A DNA stretch of 64,000 nt from the sequence record OM386658.1, one strand, 5' to 3'. The position numbers and the translations under genes were made by a program. Of this stretch, positions 451 to 53,703 are shown piece after piece. The stretch is from Escherichia phage vB_EcoM_ESCO32. The notes beneath the pieces were generated by a model. It was given only the letters and a program-made list of their open reading frames with translations. It was not told the DNA's origin and made no database searches. Positions within the stretch are counted from its first letter, which is position 1; each line of letters begins with the position of its first letter.

Positions 451-457
451 TGAAACT

Positions 458-480: not shown

Positions 481-491
481 TAAGGAGGAAT

Positions 492-2292: not shown

Positions 2293-2294
2293 TA

Positions 2295-2757: not shown

Positions 2758-2770
2758 GGAGGATAGTAGA

Positions 2771-3954: not shown

Positions 3955-3962
3955 GGAGGAGT

Positions 3963-4832: not shown

Positions 4833-4844
4833 AGGGGGAATTAA

Positions 4845-6226: not shown

Positions 6227-6228
6227 AA

Positions 6229-6489: not shown

Positions 6490-6493
6490 CAAT

Positions 6494-6637
6494 ATGAAAG
6501 GTAAACAGAAACGTAAGATCTTTTCTCGTGCTTTGGCAACAGAGCTTAAGTCCCAAACTAAAAAGACGAAGCCTAAACGTGAAATGTCTCCTGAACACCT
6601 ACTGTTTCAAGAGCTAGATCATGGGGAGGGCGACTAA
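6494..6637 (+). CDS. small basic protein, 47 aa
   Basis: ORF below track threshold with GGAG SD; fills the nrdC-e gap. Confidence 0.35.
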   Translation: MKGKQKRKIFSRALATELKSQTKKTKPKREMSPEHLLFQELDHGEGD

Positions 6638-6649
6638 TATAAGGAAAAC

Positions 6650-7150: not shown

Positions 7151-7152
7151 AC

Positions 7153-7174
7153 AAAGGGGCGAAAGCCCCTTTTA
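7153..7174 (+). terminator. rho-independent terminator
   Basis: GGGGC-GAAA-GCCCC hairpin plus TTTT directly after lysozyme stop. Confidence 0.6.
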
Positions 7175-7188
7175 TAAGGAGTGCAAAC

Positions 7189-7941
7189 ATGGGAAATAAA
7201 ACCGCAAAGGCTCGTCGTCAATCAGCAGCCAATGATGACAAACGTGCCAGTCGTTATGCGGCTAAAGCAGTAGGAAATGATGATTACCGTCTTGATGAAT
7301 TTACCCCTGTTGGGAATCAAGAAGCTATTGTAAGAAGCATGGTTTGGAATGATTTAACCATTGTTAACGCCCCAGCAGGAACAGGAAAAACGACAACAGC
7401 ACTATGGAAAGCATTGCAAATGCTTAAAGCTGGTGATTTCAGAAAGTTGATTTTCCTTAAAAACCCGACAGAAGTAGGTGATGACCAGATTGGTTTCTTA
7501 TCTGGAGATAAAACTGATAAACTAGCAGCACACTACGAATCAACTAAACGAATTTTCCAACAGTTTATGACTGCAAATAAATTGGAAAACGATATTGCAA
7601 GTGGCAAAATTGAACTTAATATTCCAAACTATGCACTAGGTGCTACGTGGGATAACAGCATTATTCTTATTGATGAAGTTCAACTTATGTCACCAAACAC
7701 AGTAAAACTTCTTCTTGAGCGAGCAGGTCTTAATACACGAATTGTCATTATGGGCGATGTTAATCAAACATATGCAATTAAACGAAGAGCTAACGGGTTA
7801 GGTGATTTGTTAGATCGTGTTGTTCCTATTAACGAAGAAGGAGAAAGGGAAGCTATTGTAGATTTTATTGGTTATGTTGAAATGACAACTGCTGATAACC
7901 AACGTTCCCGTTTGTCTCAGTTCATCACGGAAGTATATTAA
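7189..7941 (+). CDS. phoH: PhoH-like ATPase
   Basis: 250 aa; Walker A GTGKTT and Walker B ILIDEVQ, overall PhoH-like. Confidence 0.85.
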   Translation: MGNKTAKARRQSAANDDKRASRYAAKAVGNDDYRLDEFTPVGNQEAIVRSMVWNDLTIVNAPAGTGKTTTALWKALQMLKAGDFRKLIFLKNPTEVGDDQIGFLSGDKTDKLAAHYESTKRIFQQFMTANKLENDIASGKIELNIPNYALGATWDNSIILIDEVQLMSPNTVKLLLERAGLNTRIVIMGDVNQTYAIKRRANGLGDLLDRVVPINEEGEREAIVDFIGYVEMTTADNQRSRLSQFITEVY

Positions 7942-7977
7942 TAATTACAAGGCAAGGATGCCTGTTATGGAGGTTAA

Positions 7978-8472
7978 ATGACGCTAATTGAGATTGATCG
8001 CAATGGTATTGATGAATGCTATCAAGCTGGCTTAGTTAAGCCGAATGAGTTTAGACAGATTTATATTGACAAGATTGAAAAAGAGATATCTCTTCGTTTA
8101 GAGAACATGACAACTTTGCAAAAAGTTCAGATGTTTTTTAGTTGGTTAAAAGGCGAGGATTGGCTAACTAAATATTACCAGGAATTATCTGATAGTCAAG
8201 AAGGCTTGTTTGAGTGTATAATAAATATAGCTGGGTCTAATTCAGAATTACTCCTGATTGATGAAGAAGATTCTAAACTTCTTTTTCTTAGCAGTATCTT
8301 TCACAAGAAATCTATGTTAGTAAGAAATTGCAGTGATTTACTAAATCATCCACTAACAAGAACTAATAAAATTCTTGTGGATAAAGAAACACTAAGAGCT
8401 ATTGATTACCTCCGTAAATATGTAAGCGGTGGTAAAGCAGTCCTTAAAACACTACAGGAGGAAGTACAATGA
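7978..8472 (+). CDS. hypothetical protein
   Basis: Track ORF; GGAGG SD. Confidence 0.6.
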   Translation: MTLIEIDRNGIDECYQAGLVKPNEFRQIYIDKIEKEISLRLENMTTLQKVQMFFSWLKGEDWLTKYYQELSDSQEGLFECIINIAGSNSELLLIDEEDSKLLFLSSIFHKKSMLVRNCSDLLNHPLTRTNKILVDKETLRAIDYLRKYVSGGKAVLKTLQEEVQ

Positions 8473-9122
8473 CAACAATTATTGCAACACATAACAAAAT
8501 TCTATCTGATGGTAAAGTAACAGTAGGTAATCGAGTAGACACTTTAAATTTCAAGAAAGTGCGTAAAATTGGGGATTACCTTGTTGGTGGTGCAGGACGT
8601 CTGTCTTCTATCCTGACTTTCTTTTCTTGGTTCGAACAAAACTTACAGTGCCAGGCAGCACAAGAGACAATCCCAGGTTTGGTGATCCAGTCAGATCCTG
8701 ATAAAGAAGATGAAGAGTTTGTGGCATTAGTTGTTCACCCAGACGGTAAAATTTATATGCACGAGGGTAACAATCCAACGCGAGCATATCCTTTAACTGA
8801 AGATTATTATGCTGTTGGTAGTGGGGCAGATTTTGCTTTAGCAGCTTTAGACGCTGGGGCAACCCCAGAAGAAGCGATGGAAGTTGCAAAACTGCGAGAT
8901 GCTTTTTCAGGCGGTGAAACTTTTATCGAAGAGATCGAAGAACAACTGGAGTTAACAGCGGAAGATATTCTGAACTTCAGCAAGGAGCAACTAATTAGTA
9001 TGCTGTTGACTGGTGATCCTGATAGTGATGAAGCTGAAAGTATTTTAGCAGAAATGAAAGAATCACAAGAAAAAGTATTGACAGTCTCTGAAAAACTTGA
9101 TAAAGTGTCCTCTGATAATTAA
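8469..9122 (+). CDS. HslV / proteasome beta-like Ntn-hydrolase peptidase with acidic C-terminal extension
   Basis: 217 aa; MTTII N-terminus (Thr directly after Met), KKVRKI, GGAGRLSSILTFFSWFEQNL and YAVGSGADFALAALDAG align with HslV TTIV...KKVRRL...GFAGGTADAFTLFELFE...IAIGSGGPYAQAAA; about 70 extra acidic C-terminal residues. Confidence 0.6.
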   Translation: MTTIIATHNKILSDGKVTVGNRVDTLNFKKVRKIGDYLVGGAGRLSSILTFFSWFEQNLQCQAAQETIPGLVIQSDPDKEDEEFVALVVHPDGKIYMHEGNNPTRAYPLTEDYYAVGSGADFALAALDAGATPEEAMEVAKLRDAFSGGETFIEEIEEQLELTAEDILNFSKEQLISMLLTGDPDSDEAESILAEMKESQEKVLTVSEKLDKVSSDN

Positions 9123-9130
9123 TCTAGTAT

Positions 9131-9152
9131 AAACCCCCGCAAGGGGGTTATT
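9131..9152 (+). terminator. rho-independent terminator
   Basis: CCCCC-GCAA-GGGGG hairpin followed by TTATT. Confidence 0.55.
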
Positions 9153-9162
9153 AGGAGGAGAT

Positions 9163-9591
9163 ATGTTACCAGTACCTGTAATCTTTGTAGAAAAAGCCTA
9201 CTACTCTTTAGAACAAAATTGTAAAAGAGCTAAAAATTTTATTGAAAGTTTAGCAGAACAGCGTTACACTGTATCTAAAAAGGGATGGTTCAGAACTTCA
9301 CAATATTTAGTCAACCCTTTCGGAGAAGTTCGTGTGTTGTATGGCAACACAGAAAATATCTTAGAAAGAATGTTAGAACTAGACAGGATCTCCTCCTGTG
9401 ATTATCAACTGTTGAAATTTTACGATGTGTCAGAAAACGTTAAAAACTTTCTTGATGACTTATGTAAACGAAAAACAGAAGAAGATACAATACCAGTATC
9501 TATGGAAGAATTAACGTTCTTAAGAGATATTATGGTTTTTGAAGAAAACCCTGAAATCACAAAAGAGGAGATTTTAAGTAGTGGCAAATAA
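9163..9591 (+). CDS. hypothetical protein
   Basis: Track ORF; AGGAGGAG SD. Confidence 0.6.
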   Translation: MLPVPVIFVEKAYYSLEQNCKRAKNFIESLAEQRYTVSKKGWFRTSQYLVNPFGEVRVLYGNTENILERMLELDRISSCDYQLLKFYDVSENVKNFLDDLCKRKTEEDTIPVSMEELTFLRDIMVFEENPEITKEEILSSGK

Positions 9592-10090
9592 GTATGATCG
9601 TCCACCAACTGATTACTATCCTACTCCACAAAAATGTATAAATGCATTATTTAGTGTAATAGATTTTAATAACCTTAAAGAAGAAGGTTTTATTTTTGCA
9701 GAACCGTGTAAAGGCGCTGCTGCTGCAATTTATCAACATTTTCCAGAAGGATCAGAATATTGTGAGTTAGAAGAAGGGAAGGATTATTTTAACCACGAAT
9801 GGCATACTAAGCCGGATATTATAATCACAAATCCACCATTCAGACTTGCACTTGAGTTCTTGCAAAAGAGCTTAAAAGAAGCAGACGTTTGCATATACTT
9901 GTTGCGTCTTGGGTTCCTAGAGTCTATTAAACGAAGGGAATTCCATAAACAGAATCCACCAACAAATTTGATTGTTCTTTCTGAACGACCATCTTTTGTT
10001 GCAGGTGGTACTGATAAGACAGCATATGCTTGGTACGTCTACGACCCAAAAAACAGGCTGGGTTTAACTCAACCTTTCTATTTTGTTTAA
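9581..10090 (+). CDS. putative DNA N6-adenine (amino-) methyltransferase
   Basis: 169 aa, GTG start; NPPF catalytic tetrapeptide (motif IV) downstream of YYPTP and AEPCKGAAAA AdoMet-like segment. Confidence 0.55.
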   Translation: MANKYDRPPTDYYPTPQKCINALFSVIDFNNLKEEGFIFAEPCKGAAAAIYQHFPEGSEYCELEEGKDYFNHEWHTKPDIIITNPPFRLALEFLQKSLKEADVCIYLLRLGFLESIKRREFHKQNPPTNLIVLSERPSFVAGGTDKTAYAWYVYDPKNRLGLTQPFYFV

Positions 10091-10103
10091 GAGGAGCATT
10101 TTT

Positions 10104-10334
10104 ATGACCGAGAAATTTATTGTTACTATGGAACTCACCTTTGATGAAGAAGATTTTGATCTTCATGTATCAACTAAAGCAGATAACATTCACACAACAC
10201 AGAGTGTTGCAATCGCTATGTTCTTTAAGCAAGCAATTGCAAAACAAGCTGAAGTGTGTGCTGGTTTAGCTGTAGAGTACGCAGAAGTTGTCAAGGTTCT
10301 TGAAAGTGCTCGCAACAACGATTGGGATGAATAA
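10104..10334 (+). CDS. hypothetical protein
   Basis: Track ORF 10083..10334 trimmed to ATG 10104 after GAGGAG. Confidence 0.5.
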   Translation: MTEKFIVTMELTFDEEDFDLHVSTKADNIHTTQSVAIAMFFKQAIAKQAEVCAGLAVEYAEVVKVLESARNNDWDE

Positions 10335-10537
10335 TGGCATACAATTACTATCTGGTATATTTTAACGAAACTAAGAAAAAAGACACAGGAACTAATGTTT
10401 ATGCGGAATCCGAAGAACACGCAAAAGCTATTGGTTCAGTGCTTCTTTCTAGAATAGCAGGTGAAGAAATTCCTGTAGAGGCTATCTTTGCAGAAGTTGA
10501 CCCTGATATTCAAGAAGATGATATTACCACTACTTAA
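10334..10537 (+). CDS. hypothetical acidic protein
   Basis: Track ORF; TAATG overlap with upstream stop. Confidence 0.45.
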   Translation: MAYNYYLVYFNETKKKDTGTNVYAESEEHAKAIGSVLLSRIAGEEIPVEAIFAEVDPDIQEDDITTT

Positions 10538-10540
10538 CTG

Positions 10541-10569
10541 TTGACTTTAACATTAAGGTAGTGCATACT
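10541..10569 (+). promoter_or_regulatory. sigma70-like promoter upstream of recombinase gene
   Basis: TTGACT - 17 nt - CATACT; approx. Confidence 0.4.
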
Positions 10570-10594
10570 TCCTGCAACAGAACAGGAGGGTATT

Positions 10595-11257
10595 ATGAAG
10601 TTTGTACTGTATCATCGACTTTCTAAGAAGAAACAACAAGGCAACCAGTATGGTATAGAATCACAGGAAGCAGATATCCAACGCTTCCTGGATTCACAAG
10701 AAAATTATACTATTGTAGGTAGCTTTGCAGAGTTTTATTCTGGTAAAGGCGATTGGAAGCAACGTAGAGAGCTTGTAAAAGCTGTTAATCTTTGCAAAGA
10801 AACAGGTGCTACACTTGTTGTTGCTAAGGTTGACCGTCTGGGACGTAACACAGCTTCTGTTGCAACCTTGTTAGAGATGATTAATGTACGGATAGCAACT
10901 ATGCCCTCCGCTGAAAATATGATAATAAATATTTTAGCAGTTCTGGCAGAAGAAGAGGCTCGTGCAATATCTGATCGTGTTAAGAAGAGCCTTAAGGTAG
11001 CAAAAGCGAAGGGAACGCTTCTTGGTGCAGCAAACCCTAAATACAAAAGAACAGATTATACGAAAACGGAAGAAGCAAAACGCTCAAGAGAGTTTGCGCT
11101 TTCTTTAAAAGATTCTTTAGTTGCATACAGAGCTTGTAAAACGCCATATATGACGATTGCAAAGCATCTGAATGAATCAGGAAAGAGAACTATTCGTGGG
11201 AGTTTGTTCGATGCCAAAGCGGTACAACGTCTTTGTGCAAAATTGAATATTAAATAA
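10595..11257 (+). CDS. serine recombinase (resolvase/invertase family)
   Basis: 220 aa; N-terminal YHRLSKKKQ with catalytic Ser, VAKVDRLGRN matches the resolvase DRLGR motif, AVLAEEEARAISDRVKKSLKVAKAKG region, C-terminal HTH-like tail. Confidence 0.8.
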   Translation: MKFVLYHRLSKKKQQGNQYGIESQEADIQRFLDSQENYTIVGSFAEFYSGKGDWKQRRELVKAVNLCKETGATLVVAKVDRLGRNTASVATLLEMINVRIATMPSAENMIINILAVLAEEEARAISDRVKKSLKVAKAKGTLLGAANPKYKRTDYTKTEEAKRSREFALSLKDSLVAYRACKTPYMTIAKHLNESGKRTIRGSLFDAKAVQRLCAKLNIK

Positions 11258-11266
11258 GGAGGAAAC

Positions 11267-11470
11267 ATGGCAGTTCAATCTTTTGAGGAGACTGTTAAAA
11301 AACAATTCCTATCGAAGCGAGCGATGGTTGAATTTTTGCATTTTCTCGAAGTAGATAGGGTACTTATTGAGACTACACCAGATGGTAACTGGCAAGTCTC
11401 GTATATTGCCACCAGGCATATCGTAGACAGTACGAAAGAAGAAAGTTCGGAAGTTACGGTTGCTAGTTAA
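11267..11470 (+). CDS. hypothetical protein
   Basis: Track ORF; AAGGAGG SD. Confidence 0.55.
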   Translation: MAVQSFEETVKKQFLSKRAMVEFLHFLEVDRVLIETTPDGNWQVSYIATRHIVDSTKEESSEVTVAS

Positions 11471-11481
11471 AGGAGTTAAAT

Positions 11482-12054
11482 ATGCGTTTAGCTTTTAACG
11501 GGAAGATAAGCACAGCAAACATATTGTCAGCAGTAGGATTATTAGGTAAAAAATTCACACCTTTCAGTTTACCAGTTTGTGTAGATTTTGATCATGTGTT
11601 TGATATTAATAATCCTTCACGTTGTATCGCCAGAAGTAATATTGATAACCCAAGTGAAAATCTGTTTTATATTACTAAACCATCCCAAGCAATTTTGAAT
11701 CAATGGGAAGCAGGTCTGATTAAACCAGGTAAATATTTTGCATTACTACCTTGTAAATCATTGGCTATAGAGGACAGTCTAAACTATGCAAACAATCTTG
11801 TTGTTACAGCATTCATTGTCTCAGAAAAAGAAGAAACTGCGGCACTTGCAAACACTGTTAAATCTTTGTATGATGCTTTGGGTGTTACTTACACTACCTT
11901 CGTTTGTGAAGATATTCCACATTGCGTTGAATTCGTGGTGAATGGTGTAACTGTATGTCGTGTAGAAACAACTCAAGACGAAGACGTTTTTATTACTGTA
12001 GCCGATGTAATATCTGAACCTGTGTTTAGTTACGCAGTTTCATTAACACATTAA
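11482..12054 (+). CDS. hypothetical protein
   Basis: Track ORF; AAAGGAG SD. Confidence 0.6.
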   Translation: MRLAFNGKISTANILSAVGLLGKKFTPFSLPVCVDFDHVFDINNPSRCIARSNIDNPSENLFYITKPSQAILNQWEAGLIKPGKYFALLPCKSLAIEDSLNYANNLVVTAFIVSEKEETAALANTVKSLYDALGVTYTTFVCEDIPHCVEFVVNGVTVCRVETTQDEDVFITVADVISEPVFSYAVSLTH

Positions 12055-12064
12055 GGAGAAGGGG

Positions 12065-12391
12065 ATGAAAATAACGACAGAACAGGCTTTAATAGACAAA
12101 GGAAGGGAAATCTTAGAAAGTCATTTGGAGGATATTCAAAGGACTCCAGGGTATCTCGGCTGGCGTATACAAGAAGCCGTCGATTTTCTACCCCGTAAAA
12201 ATAAAGAGATTGAAGTAAGATCTCTATTCCTCCTTGTTAAAGTAGATGGTGACGCTATATACAAAGATGTAGCGTCTCACATTGAACAAATAGAAGAAAA
12301 AGCCTACAAAGAATTTGCAGATCTTGTTGTAGAACATAATATAGAAGGTAAAGTTAATATCTTTATACTTATGGATTTTGAGGAGAGTTGA
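12065..12391 (+). CDS. hypothetical protein
   Basis: Track ORF; AAGGAG SD. Confidence 0.6.
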   Translation: MKITTEQALIDKGREILESHLEDIQRTPGYLGWRIQEAVDFLPRKNKEIEVRSLFLLVKVDGDAIYKDVASHIEQIEEKAYKEFADLVVEHNIEGKVNIFILMDFEES

Positions 12392-13134
12392 TGTTAGTAT
12401 ATCAAGAAATTAGTGTAAAAGATGATCAAGACCTGTTTATTATTGGTGATTTACATGGTTGCTTTGATTTGTATCAGAAGGGTGTTAATACTTTAGGTAT
12501 CCGAGATCAAGATGTTGTTGTATCTTTAGGAGATCTTACAGATCGCGGCAAGCAGAATTTTCGTTGTGTTGTTGAATTCACCAGAAAGCTAAATCGTTAT
12601 GGTATTCGTGGAAATCATGAAGATATGATGATTAAAGGGTTGCTAGAAGGTGATAGACGATATTACGAATGTTGGTTTCAGAACGGAGGCCATACAGTTC
12701 TAGACGAGTGTGGAGAAGAGGGTGCAACTGCTCTTGCTTTGATGCTAGAAGATTTACCTGTTGTACTTGTTGTCAATTATCGTAATATGAAACTAGGCTT
12801 TATTCACGGTGGGTATCCTTCAGTTTTGGAACATTTACCAGTAACAGAAGTTTTGCCATTTTGTTTGAATATGAATAAAGAGCAAGTTTCTCGATTCACA
12901 GAATCTTTAATGTGGGATCGTGATATGATAGATTGCGCACTTGAAGGGATTCTTCTTCCTAGGGTTTCAGGAGTAGATTATGTATTTCACGGGCATTCTT
13001 ATGTTCCTAAACCTGTAATTAGCAGTAATAGGGTATATATGGACACAGGATCTTGCTTCAATGGTAATTTAACCTTTGCATATTTTGATGATTCAAATAC
13101 GTTACAATTTTATTCTACTTTAGAGGAGGATTAA
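12391..13134 (+). CDS. Ser/Thr protein phosphatase (calcineurin-like metallophosphoesterase, lambda-PPase type)
   Basis: Motifs GDLHGC, GDLTDRG, GNHE in canonical order; ATG 12391 after GAGGAG. Confidence 0.8.
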   Translation: MLVYQEISVKDDQDLFIIGDLHGCFDLYQKGVNTLGIRDQDVVVSLGDLTDRGKQNFRCVVEFTRKLNRYGIRGNHEDMMIKGLLEGDRRYYECWFQNGGHTVLDECGEEGATALALMLEDLPVVLVVNYRNMKLGFIHGGYPSVLEHLPVTEVLPFCLNMNKEQVSRFTESLMWDRDMIDCALEGILLPRVSGVDYVFHGHSYVPKPVISSNRVYMDTGSCFNGNLTFAYFDDSNTLQFYSTLEED

Positions 13135-13454
13135 TGTATAAAATCACAATTAAAGAAACAGTAGGAGAACTTACGAAAGAAACTACTATTGAGACGGAAG
13201 ATGTTGAGTTAGTCCAAGAGCTTTTATTTCCAAAACCAGAAATAAAAGACAATGATGAACAGTTGGATGAAGATAATGAGACAGCAAGGGATAAATGGAA
13301 GAAACAATTAGCGGAGATTTGGAAAAAGCCTGAAGTAACTCCTCCATACGATCCTCGTAGACCTTATTATCCTTGGGAAATTGGAAGCCCTTGGTTTACG
13401 TACCCTATTACTCCAATTGTTAATCCAATTGTTACTCCCAATATTACTTGTTAA
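13134..13454 (+). CDS. hypothetical Pro-rich protein
   Basis: Track ORF; GGAGG SD. Confidence 0.5.
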   Translation: MYKITIKETVGELTKETTIETEDVELVQELLFPKPEIKDNDEQLDEDNETARDKWKKQLAEIWKKPEVTPPYDPRRPYYPWEIGSPWFTYPITPIVNPIVTPNITC

Positions 13455-13464
13455 GGAGAAAACC

Positions 13465-14043
13465 ATGAGCGATTTATTCTACACAGGTGTTGGTAGCAGA
13501 GATATTACAGACGAAGAATGGGATACTATGGTATCTGTTGCAAAATGGTTATCTACATGGTTCATTTTGCGGTCTGGTAAAGCAGAAGGTGCAGATTCCG
13601 CATTTGAATGCGGGGTATATGATAGTGGGAACAATACGAAGAAAGAAATATACATCCCTTGGCTCTCGTTTAAAGGTAATGAGATAGAGGGAGAGGTTAT
13701 TGTTCTTGACAGACCAGATAGTGTAAACTATGCTTTAACCTTACAATATGCAAAAGAATTGCATCCAGCTTGGGACAGATTATCTCAAGGTGCTAAAAAA
13801 TTACATCAAAGAAATATCCACCAAGTTCTTGGAAGAGATCTTGAGAATCCAAAACCATCTTGTTTTCTTTTAGCTTGTGCAAATACAGATAAAAATGGAG
13901 ATCCTTTAGGTGGTACAAGAACAGCTTGGATGTTGGCTAAAAAGTTTAATGTCCCTTGTTTTAATATTCGAGGTAAAAGTAAAAAACAAATTTTCGAATT
14001 TATTAAGCCTATTTTAGAGGAGAATGGTCTTGTCCAGAAATAA
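13465..14043 (+). CDS. DprA/Smf-like (SLOG Rossmann) protein
   Basis: Track ORF trimmed to ATG 13465 after AAGGAG; GVGSRDITDEE...LRSGKAEGADSAFE fits the GSR...SG.A.G.D pattern of DprA/LOG-type Rossmann domains. Confidence 0.5.
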   Translation: MSDLFYTGVGSRDITDEEWDTMVSVAKWLSTWFILRSGKAEGADSAFECGVYDSGNNTKKEIYIPWLSFKGNEIEGEVIVLDRPDSVNYALTLQYAKELHPAWDRLSQGAKKLHQRNIHQVLGRDLENPKPSCFLLACANTDKNGDPLGGTRTAWMLAKKFNVPCFNIRGKSKKQIFEFIKPILEENGLVQK

Positions 14044-14548
14044 TATAAGCGTCATTAAAGATAGTTTTATTGATGTAACAAACGATATTGTACCTACAAT
14101 ACAATATATAGTTGAGGCACAAGGTTTAAACTTTATACGTGATAAAGTTAAGATTGTTTTTCATAACACTCCAGGTTTTGTAATAGTAGATTCAACAAAA
14201 ACGATGTATCCTACAGATCTGATTACTTTAGACAAAAACTTAACACAAGAAGAAGTAGAAATTCTTAACCTCTATTGGTTAGGTTTTAAAAGATACGAGG
14301 ATACAGCTTTATCCCGAATGTCAACTATTTTAGCTAACATTCTGGTTCGGAAAATTTCTAAACTATGGGATGAAGAAAACCCAGATGAAATAGTTTTACA
14401 CTTTGCTAAACCGGAAGACGGGGCATATGATATAGACACATCTGAAATGGCTTACGGGTTTATTATTTCTGGTAATGTATTACAGATGGAATCTTTATTG
14501 TATGTTGAGACAGTAAAACACAATAACAACTACGAGGAGGTTGTATGA
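14024..14548 (+). CDS. hypothetical protein
   Basis: Track ORF; SD is very close to ATG 14024, so in-frame TTG 14030 may be the true start. Confidence 0.5.
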   Translation: MVLSRNNISVIKDSFIDVTNDIVPTIQYIVEAQGLNFIRDKVKIVFHNTPGFVIVDSTKTMYPTDLITLDKNLTQEEVEILNLYWLGFKRYEDTALSRMSTILANILVRKISKLWDEENPDEIVLHFAKPEDGAYDIDTSEMAYGFIISGNVLQMESLLYVETVKHNNNYEEVV

Positions 14549-14802
14549 AAGGTTTAGAGTTTAACTTTGTAGATGCGTGGGAAGGATGGGATGAACTAGG
14601 AGTAGGGGATTTATGTTTTTATGATGTTACCTTGAAGGAAGAATACAAACATCTAGCTCCTAGTGAAGATTGCGATGTGATTCTATCTATCCTATTAAGT
14701 CAGTCTATAGTGCAATTTGATTTTCTAAAAGGTAGTGAGTGTATTGAAAGTAAAGCATTCCGTTTAGAAGTTTCTCTTGGTGAAGAAGTTCCTGTAGAAT
14801 AA
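14545..14802 (+). CDS. hypothetical protein
   Basis: Track ORF; GAGGAGG SD. Confidence 0.55.
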   Translation: MKGLEFNFVDAWEGWDELGVGDLCFYDVTLKEEYKHLAPSEDCDVILSILLSQSIVQFDFLKGSECIESKAFRLEVSLGEEVPVE

Positions 14803-14805
14803 TAT

Positions 14806-14829
14806 AAACCCGCTTCGGCGGGTTTTTTG
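14806..14829 (+). terminator. rho-independent terminator
   Basis: CCCGC-TTCG-GCGGG hairpin plus TTTTTT. Confidence 0.65.
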
Positions 14830-14858
14830 TTGACAACACCAGTTTTTTCGAATAAACT
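14830..14858 (+). promoter_or_regulatory. sigma70-like promoter
   Basis: TTGACA - 17 nt - TAAACT directly after the terminator, about 25 nt before gene 14885. Confidence 0.45.
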
Positions 14859-14884
14859 ACAGAAAAACAGAAGAGGAGATTAGC

Positions 14885-15295
14885 ATGTATTATAGTGATT
14901 ATTTTGTAAACCCAACAAAAGAACAACTTCAATCAGCAGTGGATAAGATGCAGATTGTAGTTAAAGAATGTGAGAAAATAAGAAAACAACTACAAGAAGA
15001 GACTGTTGTTGCTAATAAATGGTTTGGTCTTAAGAAGAAAGTTGTTAGTAAACACGATATCATCCTTGAAAAAGCAAAAACGACAGGAACTAGTTACGCC
15101 TTACAAGCCTTGTTACTAAATTACATTGATATAGAACAACATTCTCTTCTGCACTGTTGGCTTAACAGCCCTGGTATTGAGGATCTCTTGTTCTGGTTAT
15201 CGTGTGAATCTGTACTTTTAAATGAGAATGAGGCTTATCGTTTAAACTTCTGCCTCAAGGCAGAATTACCAGCTAGTGTTAAGGAGAAGAAGTAA
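14885..15295 (+). CDS. hypothetical protein
   Basis: Track ORF; AGAGGAG SD. Confidence 0.6.
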   Translation: MYYSDYFVNPTKEQLQSAVDKMQIVVKECEKIRKQLQEETVVANKWFGLKKKVVSKHDIILEKAKTTGTSYALQALLLNYIDIEQHSLLHCWLNSPGIEDLLFWLSCESVLLNENEAYRLNFCLKAELPASVKEKK

Positions 15296-15297
15296 TA

Positions 15298-16287
15298 ATG
15301 AAAGTTTTAAGTCTTTTTGATGGTATGTCAGGAGGAATGCTTGCGCTAAAAAGTGCAGGTATTGAAGTAGATACATATTATGCTTCAGAATTAGACAAAT
15401 TCGCCATAGCTGAAAGCCAAGCAAATTTTCCAGATATTATTCAGTTAGGTGATGTTACAAAATGGAGAGAATGGGATATTCCGTGGGGAGAAATTGATCT
15501 TTTGTTAGGTGGTAGTCCGTGTCAAGGCTTCTCTTCTTCTGGTAAGGGTTTGAACTTTCAAGATCCGCGATCTAAGCTATTCTTCGAATATGTTGAGATT
15601 CTTGAACATATTAAAAAGTTTAACCCTAATGTTAAGTTCATGCTTGAAAACGTTAAGATGAAAGTGGAGTGGGAAAACGTGATCACAAGTTACTTAGGTG
15701 TTGATCCCGTATTCATTAACTCCGCAGATTTCACGGCACAAAATAGACAACGTTTATACTGGTGCAACTGGGAAATAAAACCTTGGGATATTACCAATGA
15801 AGTGTTGCAAGATATCATTGAAGATGATAGTATCGTAGACAGAGATAAGGCTTATTGCATAGATGCAAATTATGCCAAAGGTGGTAATATAGAACAGTAT
15901 TTTGAAAAGAGTCGCAGACAACTGGTTTTTTATCCGGCAGCAATATATGGGCGTAGAATTAATGAAAATGGTAAACGTAGTACATCTAAAACTGATCGTT
16001 TGGTACATTGTTTGGAAGTTCAGGACAGTGAAAAAACTCGTTGCCTCACGACTGTGCCTAAAGACGTACTATTAGCCTACATTCCACCTGGAAGATATCT
16101 AGATGCCTTTGAAAAATTGAGTGAAGGCGTACATTATAGAAAGTTAACGGTTAAAGAGTGTTGCCGCTTGCAAGGTGTGCCAGATGATTACTTTAAAGTG
16201 AGTAGTAACACACAAGCATATAAGATGTTAGGCAATGGTTGGACTATACCTGTCATTGCACATATTCTTAAATGTATGGAGGAATAA
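15298..16287 (+). CDS. DNA (cytosine-5)-methyltransferase
   Basis: 329 aa; motif I LSLFDGMSGG, motif IV GGSPCQGFS, motif VI ENV, C-terminal RLQGVPDDY and GNGW. Confidence 0.85.
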   Translation: MKVLSLFDGMSGGMLALKSAGIEVDTYYASELDKFAIAESQANFPDIIQLGDVTKWREWDIPWGEIDLLLGGSPCQGFSSSGKGLNFQDPRSKLFFEYVEILEHIKKFNPNVKFMLENVKMKVEWENVITSYLGVDPVFINSADFTAQNRQRLYWCNWEIKPWDITNEVLQDIIEDDSIVDRDKAYCIDANYAKGGNIEQYFEKSRRQLVFYPAAIYGRRINENGKRSTSKTDRLVHCLEVQDSEKTRCLTTVPKDVLLAYIPPGRYLDAFEKLSEGVHYRKLTVKECCRLQGVPDDYFKVSSNTQAYKMLGNGWTIPVIAHILKCMEE

Positions 16288-16409
16288 TGGAAACATTGTG
16301 GAAAGGCTGGAAGACTGCTCTGATAGCTTTTATAATTCCATTAACTTTTCTTGGTTGGTGTTTTTGGGAATTTATCTTTTGGTTAATTTCCCATATACAT
16401 TGGGGGTAA
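16287..16409 (+). CDS. small hydrophobic peptide, 40 aa
   Basis: ORF below threshold, TAATG overlap with methyltransferase stop; predicted TM helix. Confidence 0.35.
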   Translation: METLWKGWKTALIAFIIPLTFLGWCFWEFIFWLISHIHWG

Positions 16410-16410
16410 T

Positions 16411-17019
16411 ATGACTCAAAAAGTTGCATATCAAGTAGATCGTGAAGATGGTGAAGGTAGTGTTGTAGTTTTTGATACACATGGCCTTGCAGCAAGACGC
16501 AAAGGAGCTTGTCTACTGGACATTGGTGGTGAAGATGAATACTGCACTGTACGTAGAGTAAAAGAATTTGATCAATATGCTGAAAAAGGTTTTGTACCTG
16601 TGAAAGCACTATTAGAAGCTGGATGGTGGATACCTAGTGCACATGATTATGATATTTTGGAAGATACAGATGAATTCAACAGCGAGGATTTTGTTTTTTC
16701 TCTGGATGAAAAATGCGTTTGGAAAGACTGGGATGAAATGGAACGCCATGCTTATTTTATAAACGAAGCATTAGATCGTAAAACTTGGTTTGAAAATACA
16801 GTTAAAGCAGCGTATCCTCAATTTACTTTTACACAGTTTTGGGGTGGCCCACATCATATTACTCATACAGCATATTTCGAGTTCCCAGGTTCACGTTATA
16901 AAGGTACTGTTTATTGGGATTGGGACGAGGACAAAGAACCTTCTGCTCAAGACTTCCGTTGCTATGTTTGTCAAGGTGATCAAGAAGCCCTTGACAAGTA
17001 CCTTAAAAGTCTGGTATAA
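16411..17019 (+). CDS. hypothetical protein
   Basis: Track ORF. Confidence 0.6.
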   Translation: MTQKVAYQVDREDGEGSVVVFDTHGLAARRKGACLLDIGGEDEYCTVRRVKEFDQYAEKGFVPVKALLEAGWWIPSAHDYDILEDTDEFNSEDFVFSLDEKCVWKDWDEMERHAYFINEALDRKTWFENTVKAAYPQFTFTQFWGGPHHITHTAYFEFPGSRYKGTVYWDWDEDKEPSAQDFRCYVCQGDQEALDKYLKSLV

Positions 17020-17035
17020 TCCGTAAAACTTAACC

Positions 17036-17061
17036 AAAGCCCCCAGGCAGGGGCTTTATTT
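17036..17061 (+). terminator. rho-independent terminator
   Basis: GCCCC-caggca-GGGGC hairpin plus TTTATTT. Confidence 0.55.
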
Positions 17062-17074
17062 GTCTGGAGAATAT

Positions 17075-17605
17075 ATGGGTTTTGATGACATGTTATTATA
17101 TGAGGAGGCTTGTGTGAAAGAAGCTATGGCTTTACCAGTTTTATCTATTGATATTACAACAGTAGACACTTTTTCAGATTGTGAAACGTGTGGATCGTAT
17201 TCGTCTATTGTACATGAGGTTAGTGGGGATTTAGGCACTTACGAAGATGGAGATTATGCAAGTTGTTTAGGTGATAATCGAGATGGTGAAGTGGCGAATG
17301 TTGCAAACTGGATTGCTTCTAAGTTAAAAGAAAGAAATCGTCCGTTCCCTAATCTTCTTACACCAGAAGCTATGCTTAAAGCTGAACAAGAGATGTATGA
17401 TTATGGTTATAAAGTAGATTATGACTATAATGATCCTAAATATAAAAAATTGAGTGACAAGTATTGGGAACTAGCTAATGCTTATGATAAATACTACTCT
17501 ACAGAAAACATTGTTAAATTGTTTTTAGATTTTGGAGTAGAAATTAATTGGGATTTCGAAGAGGAAGAGCGTTACGACGCATCTTCTTGGGATGATGATT
17601 ACTAA
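17075..17605 (+). CDS. hypothetical acidic protein
   Basis: Track ORF 17060..17605 trimmed to first ATG. Confidence 0.55.
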   Translation: MGFDDMLLYEEACVKEAMALPVLSIDITTVDTFSDCETCGSYSSIVHEVSGDLGTYEDGDYASCLGDNRDGEVANVANWIASKLKERNRPFPNLLTPEAMLKAEQEMYDYGYKVDYDYNDPKYKKLSDKYWELANAYDKYYSTENIVKLFLDFGVEINWDFEEEERYDASSWDDDY

Positions 17606-17616
17606 GAGGATATTGA

Positions 17617-18429
17617 ATGCGAAGAGTAATTTTTGTTAGTGGCGCAGGTTTAAGTGCAGACAGTGGGATTCGAACGTTCCGAACAGACACAGATAGTGGT
17701 CGTGCCTTATGGGAAGAATATGACTTAGAAGAGGTCTGCGATATTGGAGCTTTCCAAGCAGGTTATCGTGTGAGAACATCTCCAGATCTTCCAGTGGTCG
17801 GTGGTGTAGACGAGAACGGTATGGACTTGTATGCCAAAACACACGAATTTTATAACAAAAGACGTGTTGAGCTTAAAGATGTACAACCTAATGCTGCACA
17901 TATTCAAATAGCAAGGTGGTTTAAGGAATATCCTAACCAAGTAGTAAACTTGACAACAAACGTTGATGACCTACTAGAGCGAGCAGGTGTAGACAGGGAT
18001 TCTGTTATTCACGTGCACGGATATCTTCCTGAAGTAGTTTACCGTATGCATCCTGGAGATTACAAAACACTGGTAGACATTGGTTACAATAGTATAAACA
18101 TAGATGATTATAACTGGGTGAAGCCTAATGTTGTATTTTTTGGTGAGGCTGCACCTTTGTATGCAGATATGGCTCACTTGTTTGATACTTTGACCATGCA
18201 AGATTTGGTTGTTGTAGTAGGATGTTCAAACCAAGTTATCAATTTTAATTGGGAATTATTCCCTGCACTTAATATGGGTACAAAAATGATCGTTGTTAAC
18301 CCAGGAATTAATTACGAAGAAACTCTTCTTTACGAAGATAGAGGAGTCTTTGTTTATAGAGAAAAGGCAGCAGATGCTTTTAGCAATCCTGCTTTCATAA
18401 AAATGATAGAAGATCATTTGACTAAGTAA
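17617..18429 (+). CDS. Sir2-family (sirtuin-like) NAD-binding protein
   Basis: 270 aa; N-terminal VIFVSGAGLSADSGIRTFR matches the Sir2 GAGISxxxGIPxFR motif; GGAG SD. Confidence 0.7.
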   Translation: MRRVIFVSGAGLSADSGIRTFRTDTDSGRALWEEYDLEEVCDIGAFQAGYRVRTSPDLPVVGGVDENGMDLYAKTHEFYNKRRVELKDVQPNAAHIQIARWFKEYPNQVVNLTTNVDDLLERAGVDRDSVIHVHGYLPEVVYRMHPGDYKTLVDIGYNSINIDDYNWVKPNVVFFGEAAPLYADMAHLFDTLTMQDLVVVVGCSNQVINFNWELFPALNMGTKMIVVNPGINYEETLLYEDRGVFVYREKAADAFSNPAFIKMIEDHLTK

Positions 18430-18436
18430 CTTAACC

Positions 18437-18460
18437 AAGGGGGCGAAAGCCCCTTTTCTT
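18437..18460 (+). terminator. rho-independent terminator
   Basis: GGGGC-GAAA-GCCCC hairpin plus TTTT. Confidence 0.6.
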
Positions 18461-18473
18461 ATAGGAGAATATT

Positions 18474-18731
18474 ATGACCACAGAACAAATCGTTAAAGAC
18501 CATTTTATGATGCACTACGTTTATTACTTCAATAATAATCAACAGAAAGGTGAGGGATTTTGTTATCTATCTGCACAACAAGGTTTTGGTATCCGTCAAG
18601 CAGATATTAACGGGGCAGTGGCTGGGATTACAAAAGGCTTGGTTGCAAACCTTAAAGACAATGTTGTTGTTGTCCCAACATGCATCTCTTATCTCTCAAC
18701 CTGTCCTGAAGAAGATTTTATGCATTCCTAA
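18474..18731 (+). CDS. hypothetical protein
   Basis: Track ORF; AGGAG SD. Confidence 0.55.
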   Translation: MTTEQIVKDHFMMHYVYYFNNNQQKGEGFCYLSAQQGFGIRQADINGAVAGITKGLVANLKDNVVVVPTCISYLSTCPEEDFMHS

Positions 18732-18797
18732 AACCTCCTGTAACGCATTCTAACGCACTTTTTATTTTAGTAATACGTTTCCCTACCTTATGCAAAC

Positions 18798-18833
18798 AAA
18801 AGCCCCTAGAAGCGATTCTAGGGGCTTTATTTT
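18798..18833. terminator. bidirectional terminator at convergence of plus and minus transcription units
   Basis: 10-bp stem AGCCCCTAGA/TCTAGGGGCT flanked by A-run and T-run. Confidence 0.6.
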
Positions 18834-18906
18834 AGTCTTCTGTAAAATATCCTATGACAACAATGATAAAGATGATTAACACTACGATACTCTCTAGTAA
18901 AGTCAT

Positions 18907-44772: not shown

Positions 44773-45324
44773 TCAGGAAATATCAGATTGTGCTTTTAGA
44801 TAAACAGCAAGGTCTGTATGCCATTTTCCTAAAAGATTTTGTCCTTTCCAACAGTCCTTATTTTCCACATCACGATCCCACATCCCCATTTTGATACCAT
44901 AAATAGAATCATAAGGGCTTGCCTCTACGAACTCCTTATCGGCGTAAGCAATAAGTTTATTTTTGAGATCTTCATTTTGTGTGTATTTAAGATACAAACC
45001 ACGCTTGACAATCTTCTCTCGTAAAGAAGTCCAGGTATCTTCATCATAATCTTTAACTAATCTGCCTAGTCGCTTATAATATGCTTGTTCTTTTTCTCCT
45101 GTATATCTTAGACCTCCGGTTAAAATAGAAGATGCAATGTTGTAATCATAAAATAAACATGCTTTTCTCCACATCATATATTGTTCCACACAAGTAAATT
45201 CAACAGAACTTGTAATAGAATTATTATACTTGGGAGCTAAAGGTTCAATAAAAGATGATAGATACCAGTTGCTAAATTCATCTTTTGCCGAGAAGAAGAA
45301 CACATACTTATCAGTAATCCGCAT
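44773..45324 (-). CDS. NADAR-domain protein (YbiA/DUF1768-like)
   Basis: 183 aa; FSNWY...VEQYMMWRKACLF...GQNLLGKWHTDL resemble YbiA/NADAR motifs FSNF...SEHYFQAQKF...N.LG; AAGGAGG SD. Confidence 0.55.
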   Translation of the reverse strand: MRITDKYVFFFSAKDEFSNWYLSSFIEPLAPKYNNSITSSVEFTCVEQYMMWRKACLFYDYNIASSILTGGLRYTGEKEQAYYKRLGRLVKDYDEDTWTSLREKIVKRGLYLKYTQNEDLKNKLIAYADKEFVEASPYDSIYGIKMGMWDRDVENKDCWKGQNLLGKWHTDLAVYLKAQSDIS

Positions 45325-46566: not shown

Positions 46567-46577
46567 TGCTGGCTTAC

Positions 46578-52964: not shown

Positions 52965-53315
52965 ATGCTTGATGTAATTATTAATGGTGTTAAATATATT
53001 CCTTATGTAGAGAAAAGCAATCCTGATGCCTTGGATGTTATGTTTGAGGATTCAGATCTTGGTACTGTCACTGTACGGGAATATTTCCGACAACTACTCT
53101 CTACGTTATGGAGAGAAGAAGAGTGTTTTAATGGTAAACGTCCATTTGGTAACTCATGCTGGCAATTTGATATGATCCGCGCCTTAATTGAGGCAGGGTA
53201 TATTGAAGGTACAGTTGTGTACGATGAAGATGGATATCCAGAAGAGACTGACTACGACAGCAAAGAAGCTAATAAATTTATACAGGGCTTGATTGCACAG
53301 ATGTGTTTGGGTTAA
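52965..53315 (+). CDS. hypothetical protein
   Basis: Track ORF; AAGGAG SD. Confidence 0.55.
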   Translation: MLDVIINGVKYIPYVEKSNPDALDVMFEDSDLGTVTVREYFRQLLSTLWREEECFNGKRPFGNSCWQFDMIRALIEAGYIEGTVVYDEDGYPEETDYDSKEANKFIQGLIAQMCLG

Positions 53316-53316
53316 T

Positions 53317-53703
53317 ATGAAAGTATTAAATTTTTACCACTTAGGTAAAGTAATACCTGAAGGTGCAGTTTACATTGGCAGAGCTATGCCTCATATGGGG
53401 TTAAAAGCCTCAAAGTTTGCAAATCCTTTTAAGTTAAAGGATGATGAACCACGAGGGTCAACTATACAAAGATATAAAGAGTGGTTGTGGGAACAAATTC
53501 GTTGTGGTAAAATCACTCTTGAGGATTTGTTAGAATTAGAAGGGAAAGACTTAGTTTGCTTCTGCGCACCTCAACCTTGTCATGGTGATGTGTTGGTAGC
53601 AGCGGTTGCTTGGGCTAGAACAGAGTGGGATAAAAGGCATCCTACTTACACAGATGATTATTGGATTTGGGAGGATATTTATGAAGACTACACAAGAAAT
53701 TAA
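53317..53703 (+). CDS. DUF4326-like protein
   Basis: Track ORF trimmed to ATG 53317; YIGRAMP...FANPF...CFCAPQPCHGDVL motif pattern recalled for DUF4326. Confidence 0.45.
   Translation: MKVLNFYHLGKVIPEGAVYIGRAMPHMGLKASKFANPFKLKDDEPRGSTIQRYKEWLWEQIRCGKITLEDLLELEGKDLVCFCAPQPCHGDVLVAAVAWARTEWDKRHPTYTDDYWIWEDIYEDYTRN

What the first reader, a model, noticed from the sequence alone, without database searches (positions are those of the whole stretch)
12391..14043. Lambda-type protein phosphatase and DprA/SLOG-like Rossmann protein as neighbours
A metallophosphoesterase with all three signature motifs lies two genes upstream of a protein with the GSR...SG.A.G.D Rossmann pattern of DprA/LOG/SLOG domains, which are implicated in nucleotide-signal or DNA processing. 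Together with the Sir2-like and NADAR genes this adds to a signalling / counter-defence theme.
Basis: partly seen in the sequence, partly recalled or inferred. Interest (0 to 1): 0.4.

Follow-up and report, generated by a model that had tools for sequence, protein, structure and literature searches.

The report
Known phage phosphatase and SLOG neighbours
Both genes are real and already annotated in phi92-like coliphages; they sit together by shared ancestry, and homologues of the SLOG protein are fused to NADAR and DUF4326, both also encoded elsewhere in this window.

Summary
The window is a phi92-like E. coli myophage (Justusliebigvirus), 98-99% identical to published genomes.

- **Phosphatase.** Gene 12391-13134 (phi92 gp049) is a lambda-type PPP phosphatase. 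It matches PDB 1G5B at E=2e-29 and has every metal-ligand motif.
- **Prior annotation.** Public records already name the two genes "NinI-like phosphatase" and "DprA-like protein".
- **Adjacency.** The pairing is lineage synteny. Among 42 SLOG sequence clusters, a phosphatase lies within 6 kb in 6, three of which belong to one syntenic lineage. The two families also have very different host distributions.
- **Other links.** Homologues of this SLOG family are fused to NADAR and DUF4326. Macro, NADAR or DUF4326 genes lie nearby in 10 of 42 clusters. The window itself encodes standalone NADAR, DUF4326 and Sir2.

The NAD+/ADP-ribose counter-defence theme is therefore supported and already published as a prediction (Iyer et al. 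2022). The phosphatase-SLOG coupling is not supported. The biochemical function of the SLOG protein remains untested.

The parts
12391..13134 (+). phi92 gp049 homologue: lambda/PrpA/PrpB-type PPP metallophosphatase, 247 aa. GDLHG at 12445-12459, GDLTDRG at 12529-12549, GNHE at 12610-12621, IHGG at 12802-12813, HGHS at 12988-12999.
   Evidence: PF00149 3e-13; phrog_246 'NinI-like serine-threonine phosphatase' 2e-75; NCBIfam PrpA/PrpB models 5e-27 and 1e-23, below the equivalog cut-offs; PDB 1G5B 2e-29; motif positions.
13134..13454 (+). phi92 gp048 homologue, 106 aa: acidic N-terminal half, proline-rich C-terminus, function unknown. Its start overlaps the phosphatase stop (TAATG).
   Evidence: phrog_15301 1e-51, no Pfam or NCBIfam hit. 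Found directly upstream of the SLOG gene only in the phi92-like supergroup (3 SLOG clusters).
13465..14043 (+). phi92 gp047 homologue (100% identical to phi92 gp047): stand-alone DprA-type SLOG domain, 192 aa. GVGSR at 13486-13500, SGKAEGAD at 13573-13596, PWLSF at 13657-13671, HPAW at 13762-13773, LHQRNIHQVLG at 13801-13833, GGTRTA at 13909-13926.
14024..14548 (+). phi92 gp046 homologue, 174 aa, unknown function. Overlaps the SLOG gene by 20 nt and is conserved only in close relatives.
   Evidence: phrog_8569 8e-57, no significant Pfam hit; present in 6 of 83 loci.
17617..18429 (+). Sir2-family protein (context): the last annotated enzyme gene of the same rightward gene block.
   Evidence: PF02146 3e-22, phrog_2162 3e-105.
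44773..45324 (-). NADAR-domain protein (context). This domain is found fused to homologues of the SLOG protein.
   Evidence: PF08719 3e-36. NADAR-SLOG fusions P0136 and P0194, and giant proteins P0121/P0122.
53293..53703 (+). DUF4326-domain protein (context). This domain is found fused to homologues of the SLOG protein. Its homologue lies between the phosphatase and the SLOG gene in locus L051.
   Evidence: PF14216 2e-21. Fusions P0072, P0183, P0205 and P0222. L051 4893-5249 is 56% identical.

Best explanation
These are two independent accessory genes of a phi92-like lytic coliphage, both already annotated. They are neighbours because of lineage-specific gene order.

(1) gp049 is a Mn2+-dependent lambda/PrpA/PrpB-type phosphoprotein phosphatase. 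The fold, motifs and metal ligands are shown. The substrate is inferred, most likely host or phage phospho-Ser/Thr/Tyr proteins during takeover.

(2) gp047 is a single-domain SLOG protein of the DprA sequence type. It lacks the SAM and winged-helix domains of bacterial DprA. It has the conserved DprA base-binding pocket (GSR loop plus LxxRN helix) and further family-specific invariant polar residues (R36, D44, H100, H114, Q120, S132, T151). I infer that it binds, and possibly cleaves, a nucleotide-type ligand. The ligand would be an ADP-ribose derivative or an ADP-ribosylated base in single-stranded nucleic acid. It would act in the same NAD+/ADP-ribose counter-defence pathway as the phage's NADAR and DUF4326 proteins. 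The inference rests on repeated fusion of this exact family to those two domains, and on frequent proximity to Macro, NADAR, DUF4326 and NAD-salvage genes in other phages.

Shown: identity, fold, motifs, fusions, neighbourhood statistics. Inferred: the ligand, any catalysis, and the counter-defence role.
For: - Phage identity: 98-99% nucleotide identity to arall, inny, phi92 and EmilieFrey, with the same annotations.
- Phosphatase.
- SLOG fold.
- DprA-domain signatures as defined in PMC3950713 (G-S/T/A-R and F/L/Y-x-x-R-N/D): present as G10-S11-R12 and L113-x-x-R116-N117, invariant or nearly invariant in 238 members.
- Manual motif alignment to E. coli Smf from the sequences printed: GSR, SGxAxGxD, RN, (S/G)G(S/T)xxTA.
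- Size of the family: 6080 cluster representatives at E<=1e-3, mostly 170-200 aa stand-alone proteins; 1508 phage records.
- Fusions among the top 150 representatives: NADAR-SLOG (P0136, P0194); DUF4326-SLOG (P0183, P0205, P0222); SLOG-DUF4326 (P0072); giant proteins combining this SLOG with YAcAr, SLOG cluster 4 and NADAR (P0121, P0122).
- Neighbourhoods: Macro in 6, NADAR in 2 and DUF4326 in 2 SLOG clusters, all distinct, so 10 of 42. NAMPT plus PRPP synthetase, NAD-dependent ligase and RNA ligase were also seen.
- In the syntenic locus L051 a DUF4326 gene sits inside the phosphatase-gp48-SLOG block.
[quoted passage not shown] NADAR hydrolyses ADP-ribosyl-guanine in DNA (PMC11543638, PMC11125620). 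Deleting a 'Smf/DprA' SLOG gene (ORF83) in phage DruSM1 lowers plating on AVAST type III (10.1101/2024.04.14.589459).
- Against a phosphatase dependency.
Against: - No biochemical or genetic data exist for gp047 or any verified member of its family.
- In this window the SLOG gene is not next to NADAR or DUF4326 (31 and 40 kb away).
- PhoH, not an ADPr enzyme, is the commonest neighbour (13 of 42 clusters).
- Fused proteins are a small minority of the family.
The related Seuratvirus CAjan has no homologue.
- The phosphatase lies within 6 kb of the SLOG gene in four apparently independent lineages, so a loose functional association cannot be excluded.
Confidence: 0.55

Rival explanations
1. gp047 is what its database name says: a phage DprA-like recombination mediator or ssDNA-binding protein. 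It would protect ssDNA and load a recombinase during replication and recombination.
Against: It has a single 192-aa domain, without the SAM and C-terminal winged-helix domains. The PF02481 scores checked in 20 homologues are all below the gathering cut-off (19-24 bits against 29.6). The family pI is near neutral (median 7.8; gp047 6.8). There is a large family-specific insertion (aa ~65-110) with its own invariant residues. Recurrent fusions are to NADAR and DUF4326, not to recombination proteins. The EVADES preprint found that the related ORF83 lacks the DprA dimerisation and RecA-binding residues (10.1101/2025.06.06.658234).
Confidence: 0.2
2. gp047 is a LOG-like phosphoribohydrolase. It would cleave the N-glycosidic bond of AMP or another free nucleotide, as proposed in silico for DruSM1 ORF83, and so alter nucleotide pools or destroy a nucleotide signal.
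Against: The LOG signature PGGxGTxxE is replaced by LGGTRTAWML, with no acidic residue at the catalytic Glu position (motif from PMC3950713). There was no PF03641 hit in any of the 67 members. hhalign to E. coli PpnN covers only the N-terminal loop, at E=0.27.
Confidence: 0.12
3. The phosphatase, gp048 and the SLOG protein form one functional cassette. For example, the SLOG protein would bind or cleave an ADPr-derived or cyclic-nucleotide signal, and the metallophosphatase would remove its phosphate.
For: The block is conserved in all 12 loci with >=62% SLOG identity and in the divergent locus L051. A distantly related lambda-type phosphatase (25-28% identity) lies 0.2-5.5 kb from the SLOG gene in three other lineages that share no other gene with the window within the 12-kb loci compared (L079, L049, L022/L035). 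The fused partner DUF4326 is itself predicted to be a phosphatase-like domain acting on ribose-linked phosphates (PMC9503650), so a phosphate-removing partner is plausible. In L051, DUF4326 sits inside the block.
Against: Only 6 of 42 SLOG clusters have the phosphatase within 6 kb, and 3 of 42 within two genes. No metallophosphatase fusion appears among the 20 multi-domain proteins scanned. Host distributions are largely non-overlapping, so at least about two thirds of SLOG-bearing phage records cannot carry this phosphatase. The phosphatase's closest relatives are protein phosphatases (lambda PP, PrpA/B) rather than nucleotide phosphodiesterases.
Confidence: 0.1

Closest known systems
Bacteriophage lambda Ser/Thr protein phosphatase (NinI/ORF221, PDB 1G5B) and E. 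coli PrpA/PrpB
   Same: The alignment is full-length (E=2e-29). D20, H22, N75 and H76 match in number, D48 and R52 correspond to lambda D49 and R53, and the two downstream His ligands are present. It belongs to the same PHROG (phrog_246).
   Different: About 33% identity. It has a ~25-residue insertion between the fourth and fifth motifs and a longer C-terminus. It scores below the NCBIfam equivalog cut-offs (95 bits against 326). The substrate and biological role in this phage are unknown.
Rossmann-fold (DprA/Smf, PF02481) domain of bacterial DprA, e.g. H. pylori DprA (4LJK/4LJR), R. palustris 3MAJ, E. coli Smf
   Different: No SAM or winged-helix domain. A ~45-residue insertion after strand 3 carries invariant PW..F and HPAW. 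Scores are below the Pfam gathering threshold. Dimerisation and RecA contacts are unverified. Its fusion partners are NADAR and DUF4326.
Viral SLOG domains of the NAD+/ADP-ribose network (Iyer, Burroughs, Anantharaman, Aravind 2022, PMC9503650)
   Same: A stand-alone SLOG protein in a medium-to-large caudovirus. It shows fusions to NADAR and DUF4326 and co-residence with Sir2, NADAR and DUF4326 in one genome, which is the pattern described there.
Phage DruSM1 ORF83 ('Smf/DprA' SLOG, anti-AVAST type III; Ojima et al. 2024 preprint; EVADES preprint 2025)
   Same: A small phage SLOG protein annotated as DprA/Smf, with an R-N pair and a Thr in the predicted nucleotide pocket. Its homologues are fused to DUF4326.
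   Different: The spacing between the RN pair and the Thr differs (22 against 34 residues). The Seuratvirus relative CAjan has no gp047 homologue. The anti-Avs3 phenotype rests on one deletion mutant.
LOG / PpnN phosphoribohydrolases (PF03641)
   Different: The PGGxGTxxE motif lacks its catalytic Glu, and there is no profile match.

Membership tests
PPP-family lambda-type phosphatase (PF00149; lambda PP/PrpA/PrpB group) | Motif I GDxHG, motif II GDxxDR(G), motif III GNH(E/D) | tested here: met
   GDLHG at aa 19-23, GDLTDRG at 47-53, GNHE at 74-77, aligned to the same motifs of 1G5B.
PPP-family lambda-type phosphatase (PF00149; lambda PP/PrpA/PrpB group) | Two downstream His metal ligands (lambda H139 and H186) | tested here: met
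   IHGG (H139) aligns with lambda 'CHADYP', and HGHS aligns with lambda 'FGHT'.
PPP-family lambda-type phosphatase (PF00149; lambda PP/PrpA/PrpB group) | Profile score above the curated threshold | tested here: met
   PF00149 scores 51 bits against a cut-off of 21.5. The NCBIfam PrpA/PrpB equivalog cut-offs are not reached (95 against 326 bits), so it is a family member, not a PrpA/PrpB orthologue.
PPP-family lambda-type phosphatase (PF00149; lambda PP/PrpA/PrpB group) | Mn2+-dependent phosphomonoesterase activity on phosphoproteins | not testable with these tools
   Needs an enzyme assay.
SLOG superfamily (SMF/DprA-LOG Rossmannoid) | Three-layer alpha/beta Rossmannoid fold with best structural matches to SLOG members | tested here: met
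SLOG superfamily (SMF/DprA-LOG Rossmannoid) | Gly-rich nucleotide-contacting loop after strand 1, and the SGxAxGxD element after strand 2 | tested here: met
   G8-x-G10-S11-R12 and S37-G38-x-A40-x-G42-x-D44 are invariant or at least 93% conserved in 238 members.
DprA/Smf domain (PF02481) | Signature motifs G-S/T/A-R and F/L/Y-x-x-R-N/D (Wang et al. 2014, PMC3950713) | tested here: met
   G10-S11-R12 and L113-H-Q-R116-N117. R12, R116 and N117 are 99-100% conserved and L113 95%.
DprA/Smf domain (PF02481) | Pfam profile score above the gathering threshold | tested here: not met
   The query has no hit at E<=0.1. 57 of 67 homologues hit at E<=1, with a best E of 3.6e-6. Among the 20 homologues scanned, PF02481 scores were 19-24 bits against a cut-off of 29.6. 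The profile search of PDB reaches DprA chains only at E=0.03-0.5, over the N-terminal 45 residues.
DprA/Smf domain (PF02481) | Typical architecture: SAM-like N-domain, Rossmann domain, and usually a C-terminal winged-helix (DML1) domain | tested here: not met
   The protein is 192 aa and the Rossmann domain spans the whole of it.
DprA/Smf domain (PF02481) | Dimerisation, ssDNA binding and RecA loading | not testable with these tools
LOG / lysine-decarboxylase-like phosphoribohydrolases (PF03641) | PGGxGTxxE motif with catalytic Glu | tested here: not met
   The equivalent segment is L148-GGTRTAWML, with no acidic residue. A154 is 99% conserved. No PF03641 hit in 67 members.
YpsA / YAcAr (cpYpsA) clades of SLOG (PF06908, PF10686) | Profile match to the clade models | tested here: not met
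   The phosphatase is within 6 kb in 6 of 42 SLOG clusters, three of them one syntenic lineage. Metallophos appears in 3 of 143 genes within two positions of the SLOG gene. No fusion was found. Genus distributions are discordant.

The most novel reading that the evidence does not exclude
phrog_768 is present in about 3% of sequenced phage genomes and has more than 6000 clusters at 50% identity. It could be an uncharacterised DprA-derived enzyme or sensor that uses the DprA base-flipping pocket to recognise ADP-ribosylated bases in ssDNA, or free ADPr-derived immune signals. It would then hand them to NADAR and DUF4326 for removal. That would make it a widespread third component of phage defence against DarT-, Thoeris- or RES-type NAD+-based immunity. 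In phi92-like phages the lambda-type phosphatase might serve as an analogous phosphate-removing partner.
Probability: 0.3. Interest if true: 0.6.

Novelty: already known. Interest (0 to 1): 0.2.

Why it matters
As a finding in this window it adds little. The sequence is a known phage, and gp047 is 100% identical to phi92 gp047. Both genes already carry these names in GenBank and RefSeq records. The NAD+/ADP-ribose counter-defence reading of viral SLOG, NADAR, DUF4326 and Sir2 genes has been published as a prediction.

The useful result concerns which genes to test together. The SLOG family is very large, experimentally untouched and probably mis-named as a 'DNA recombination mediator'. Its fusion and neighbourhood partners (NADAR, DUF4326, Macro) point to concrete experiments, with ADP-ribosylated DNA or ADPr-derived signals as candidate ligands. 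The phosphatase should not be assumed to belong to the same pathway.

Tried and rejected
- Direct sequence search of PDB with gp047: only a chance hit.
- Profile search of PDB: DprA chains at E 0.03-0.5, N-terminal motif only.
- hhalign of the family against E. coli Smf and PpnN: only the N-terminal loop aligns. I therefore aligned the C-terminal motifs by eye from the sequences.
- PADLOC models: no hit for the phosphatase, gp048, gp047 or gp046, so these are not captured defence-system components.
- DruSM1 ORF83: I tried to link gp047 to it experimentally. The ORF83 sequence is not in the papers or supplements held. The Seuratvirus CAjan has no homologue of the family.
- 'Phage phosphatases counter aRES' (10.64898/2026.01.28.702374): I checked it for an explanation of the phosphatase. 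That phosphatase is a Macro-domain enzyme, not a metallophosphatase.
- The mycobacteriophage metallophosphoesterase Gp48 (PMC12287305): it disrupts host genomic DNA integrity and is not a lambda-type protein phosphatase.
- Functional operon reading: rejected as uninformative. Every gene from the RNR genes to Sir2 (window 1-18,900) is co-directional with overlapping or nearly abutting stops and starts.
Full report
**What the window is.** A 4-kb stretch around the finding is 98-99% identical to about 55 published Escherichia phages of the genus Justusliebigvirus: arall, inny, phi92, EmilieFrey/Bas61, VEcB and others. In those records the genes under the finding are already named 'NinI-like serine-threonine phosphatase' or 'putative phosphatase', and 'DprA-like DNA recombination-mediator protein'. 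The genes correspond to phi92 gp049, gp048 and gp047. They lie inside a long rightward block that runs from the ribonucleotide reductase genes through dTDP-rhamnose genes, endolysin, PhoH, an HslV-like peptidase, two DNA methyltransferases and a serine recombinase to a Sir2 gene (window ~1-18,900).

**Checking the observation.** The phosphatase ORF is 12391-13134. Its ATG shares a base with the upstream TGA and follows a GAGGAG RBS.
- It has GDLHG (aa 19-23), GDLTDRG (47-53) and GNHE (74-77), plus the two later His ligands IHGG and HGHS.
- It scores PF00149 E=3e-13 and phrog_246 E=2e-75.
- It aligns over residues 3-230 with the solved lambda phosphatase 1G5B at E=2e-29, with all catalytic positions matched.
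- The best NCBIfam models are the protein phosphatases PrpA and PrpB (5e-27, 1e-23). ApaH- and PrpE-type nucleotide hydrolases follow far behind.

The next gene (13134-13454, 106 aa) is a PHROG of unknown function.

The SLOG-like gene starts at the ATG at 13465, behind AAGGAG, and ends at 14043, giving 192 aa. The only correction is the start codon.

**What gp047 is.**
- The protein itself gives no Pfam, NCBIfam or PDB sequence hit, but it matches phrog_768 at 9e-60.
- An alignment of 67 homologues produced an AlphaFold model with mean pLDDT 97.
- Sequence does pick one. 57 of 67 homologues give weak PF02481 (DprA) hits and 12 give SLOG cluster 4 hits. None of the 25 families listed is YpsA, YAcAr or LOG.
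- Wang et al. (PMC3950713) defined two signatures of the ssDNA-binding DprA domain, G-S/T/A-R and F/L/Y-x-x-R-N/D. In HpDprA these form the pocket that takes up a thymine. gp047 has G10-S11-R12 and L113-H-Q-R116-N117, and R12, R116 and N117 are conserved in 99-100% of 238 family members.
- Laid beside E. coli Smf, the order GSR ... SGxAxGxD ... RN ... (S/G)G(S/T)xxTA ... final strand is the same.
- The LOG motif PGGxGTxxE is not present. The segment reads LGGTRTAWML, with no Glu.
- The protein is a single domain without the SAM and winged-helix domains of DprA. It has a ~45-residue insertion with its own invariant residues (P65, W66, F69, H100), and the PF02481 scores checked in 20 homologues are all below the gathering threshold.

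I therefore call it a DprA-type SLOG domain protein. I do not file it as a DprA orthologue.

**How big the family is.** A filter-free profile search found 6080 cluster representatives at E<=1e-3 and 2632 at E<=1e-30. Almost all are stand-alone proteins of 170-200 aa. tblastn finds the family in 1508 of 50,697 phage records, across Klebsiella, Pseudomonas, Escherichia, Vibrio, Aeromonas and Acinetobacter phages. Foldseek against viral models finds the same phage proteins.

**Is the phosphatase a partner?** I fetched 80 viral loci containing a family member and added three annotated phage loci. I then clustered the SLOG proteins at 70% identity, which gave 42 clusters.
- A lambda-type phosphatase lies within 6 kb in 17 loci, or 6 clusters.
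- Three of these clusters (0, 1 and 25/L051) are syntenic with the window over PhoH, HslV, methyltransferase and recombinase, so they count as one lineage.
- The other three (L049; L079; L022/L035) share only these two genes with the window and carry distant phosphatases of 25-28% identity.
- For comparison, PhoH is within 6 kb in 13 clusters and Macro in 6.
- Among 143 genes within two positions of the SLOG gene, one locus per cluster, Metallophos occurs 3 times and PhoH 4 times.
- No metallophosphatase fusion was seen among the 20 multi-domain proteins scanned.
- The phosphatase family has a different distribution: Vibrio 373, Escherichia 332, Salmonella 292, Pseudomonas 15. The SLOG family has Klebsiella 312, Pseudomonas 282, Escherichia 179, Salmonella 53. 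Most SLOG-bearing phages therefore have no such phosphatase.

I conclude that the adjacency is inherited gene order, with at most a weak tendency for the two accessory genes to share the same early/middle gene region.

**What the SLOG family is linked to.** Of the multi-domain proteins among the best 150 representatives:
- two are NADAR-SLOG (P0136, P0194);
- three are DUF4326-SLOG (P0183, P0205, P0222);
- one from the first search is SLOG-DUF4326 (P0072);
- two giant proteins combine this SLOG with YAcAr, SLOG cluster 4 and NADAR (P0121, P0122).

Within 6 kb of the SLOG gene, Macro (6 clusters), NADAR (2) and DUF4326 (2) occur in ten different clusters. NAMPT plus PRPP synthetase, NAD-dependent DNA ligase and RNA ligase are also neighbours in single lineages.

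The window itself encodes stand-alone NADAR (44773-45324, minus strand; 3e-36), DUF4326 (53293-53703; 2e-21) and Sir2 (17617-18429). In the syntenic locus L051, a 56%-identical DUF4326 gene sits between the phosphatase and gp48-SLOG.

**Comparison with the literature.**
- Iyer et al. (PMC7824862 and PMC9503650) described viral SLOG domains as fused to Macro, NADAR and DUF4326 and as co-occurring with them. They predicted that these domains sense or cleave ADP-ribose derivatives made by host immunity, and that DUF4326 is a rhodanese-phosphatase-like domain acting on ribose-linked phosphates. They state that this is experimentally uncharacterised.
- NADAR enzymes have since been shown to remove ADP-ribose from guanine in DNA (abstract of PMC11543638; PMC11125620).
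- A deletion of a 'Smf/DprA' gene (ORF83) in phage DruSM1 reduced plating on AVAST type III. A later preprint predicted AMP binding through an R-N pair and a Thr, and noted DUF4326-fused homologues.
- I could not obtain the ORF83 sequence. The related phage CAjan has no family member, so the link to gp047 remains a lead only.
- I found no experimental work on gp047 or phrog_768 in the library.

**Mechanism.**
- Best supported: gp049 is a Mn2+-dependent protein phosphatase of unknown target. gp047 uses the conserved DprA-type pocket, plus additional invariant polar residues (R36, D44, H100, H114, Q120, S132, T151), to bind and possibly process a nucleotide-type ligand in the NAD+/ADP-ribose conflict, together with NADAR and DUF4326.
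- Undecided: whether the ligand is a free ADPr derivative or an ADP-ribosylated base in ssDNA. The DprA pocket and the DNA-directed activity of NADAR make the second option attractive. The near-neutral pI of the family (median 7.8) gives no support to general DNA binding.
- Rivals: a true recombination mediator, a LOG-like nucleotide N-glycosidase, or a phosphatase-SLOG cassette. Each is listed with its evidence.

**Verdict.** Novelty: already known. Interest is low, and what remains of it attaches to the uncharacterised, very widespread SLOG family rather than to this locus.

Noticed in passing
window 53293-53703 (+); L051 4893-5249: A DUF4326 gene (PF14216 2e-21) lies 40 kb from the SLOG gene. 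In the syntenic but divergent viral contig L051, its 56%-identical homologue sits between the lambda-type phosphatase and gp48-SLOG. DUF4326 is also fused to homologues of the SLOG protein.
   Followed up: partly
window 44773-47705 (-): The NADAR gene (44773-45324) is followed by a protein with four CapR-homology repeats plus a T5orf172 domain (45325-46503), and by an AAA/STAND-like ATPase (46578-47705). Whether these three form a unit was not examined. NADAR also matches the PADLOC candidate model PDC-M42C (2e-34).
   Followed up: no
window 11482-12054 (+), 17060-17605 (+): These proteins carry the PHROG or GenBank names 'histidyl tRNA synthetase' or 'putative aminoacyl-tRNA synthetase', but have no significant Pfam hit (11482-12054 also has no NCBIfam hit). 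The name looks unreliable.
   Followed up: partly
window 2965-6226 (+): Four genes are annotated in EmilieFrey as the dTDP-rhamnose pathway (RmlB, RmlA, RmlC and RmlD-like), inside the phage nucleotide-metabolism block. This is unusual cargo that may relate to DNA or surface modification.
   Followed up: no
window 10595-11257 (+): A serine recombinase/invertase-like gene (220 aa) sits in a strictly lytic myophage and is conserved in relatives (L011 72% identity, L051 39%).
   Followed up: no
window 7189-7941 (+) and 83 related loci: PhoH-like ATPase is the commonest gene near the SLOG family. It lies within 6 kb in 13 of 42 SLOG clusters and is often the immediately upstream gene. The meaning is unknown, and it may only reflect the ubiquity of PhoH in large phages.
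   Followed up: partly
window 19000-44700 (-): About 25 kb is made up almost entirely of small leftward ORFs of unknown function, presumably early genes. GC skew switches sign at ~18.5 kb, ~32 kb and ~50 kb, matching the changes in transcription direction.
   Followed up: no
P0121, P0122 (1475 and 1488 aa, from the representative library): Giant proteins combine this SLOG family with YAcAr, SLOG cluster 4 and NADAR domains. They resemble the 'polyvalent proteins' of phages and conjugative elements. Their source genomes were not looked up.
   Followed up: no
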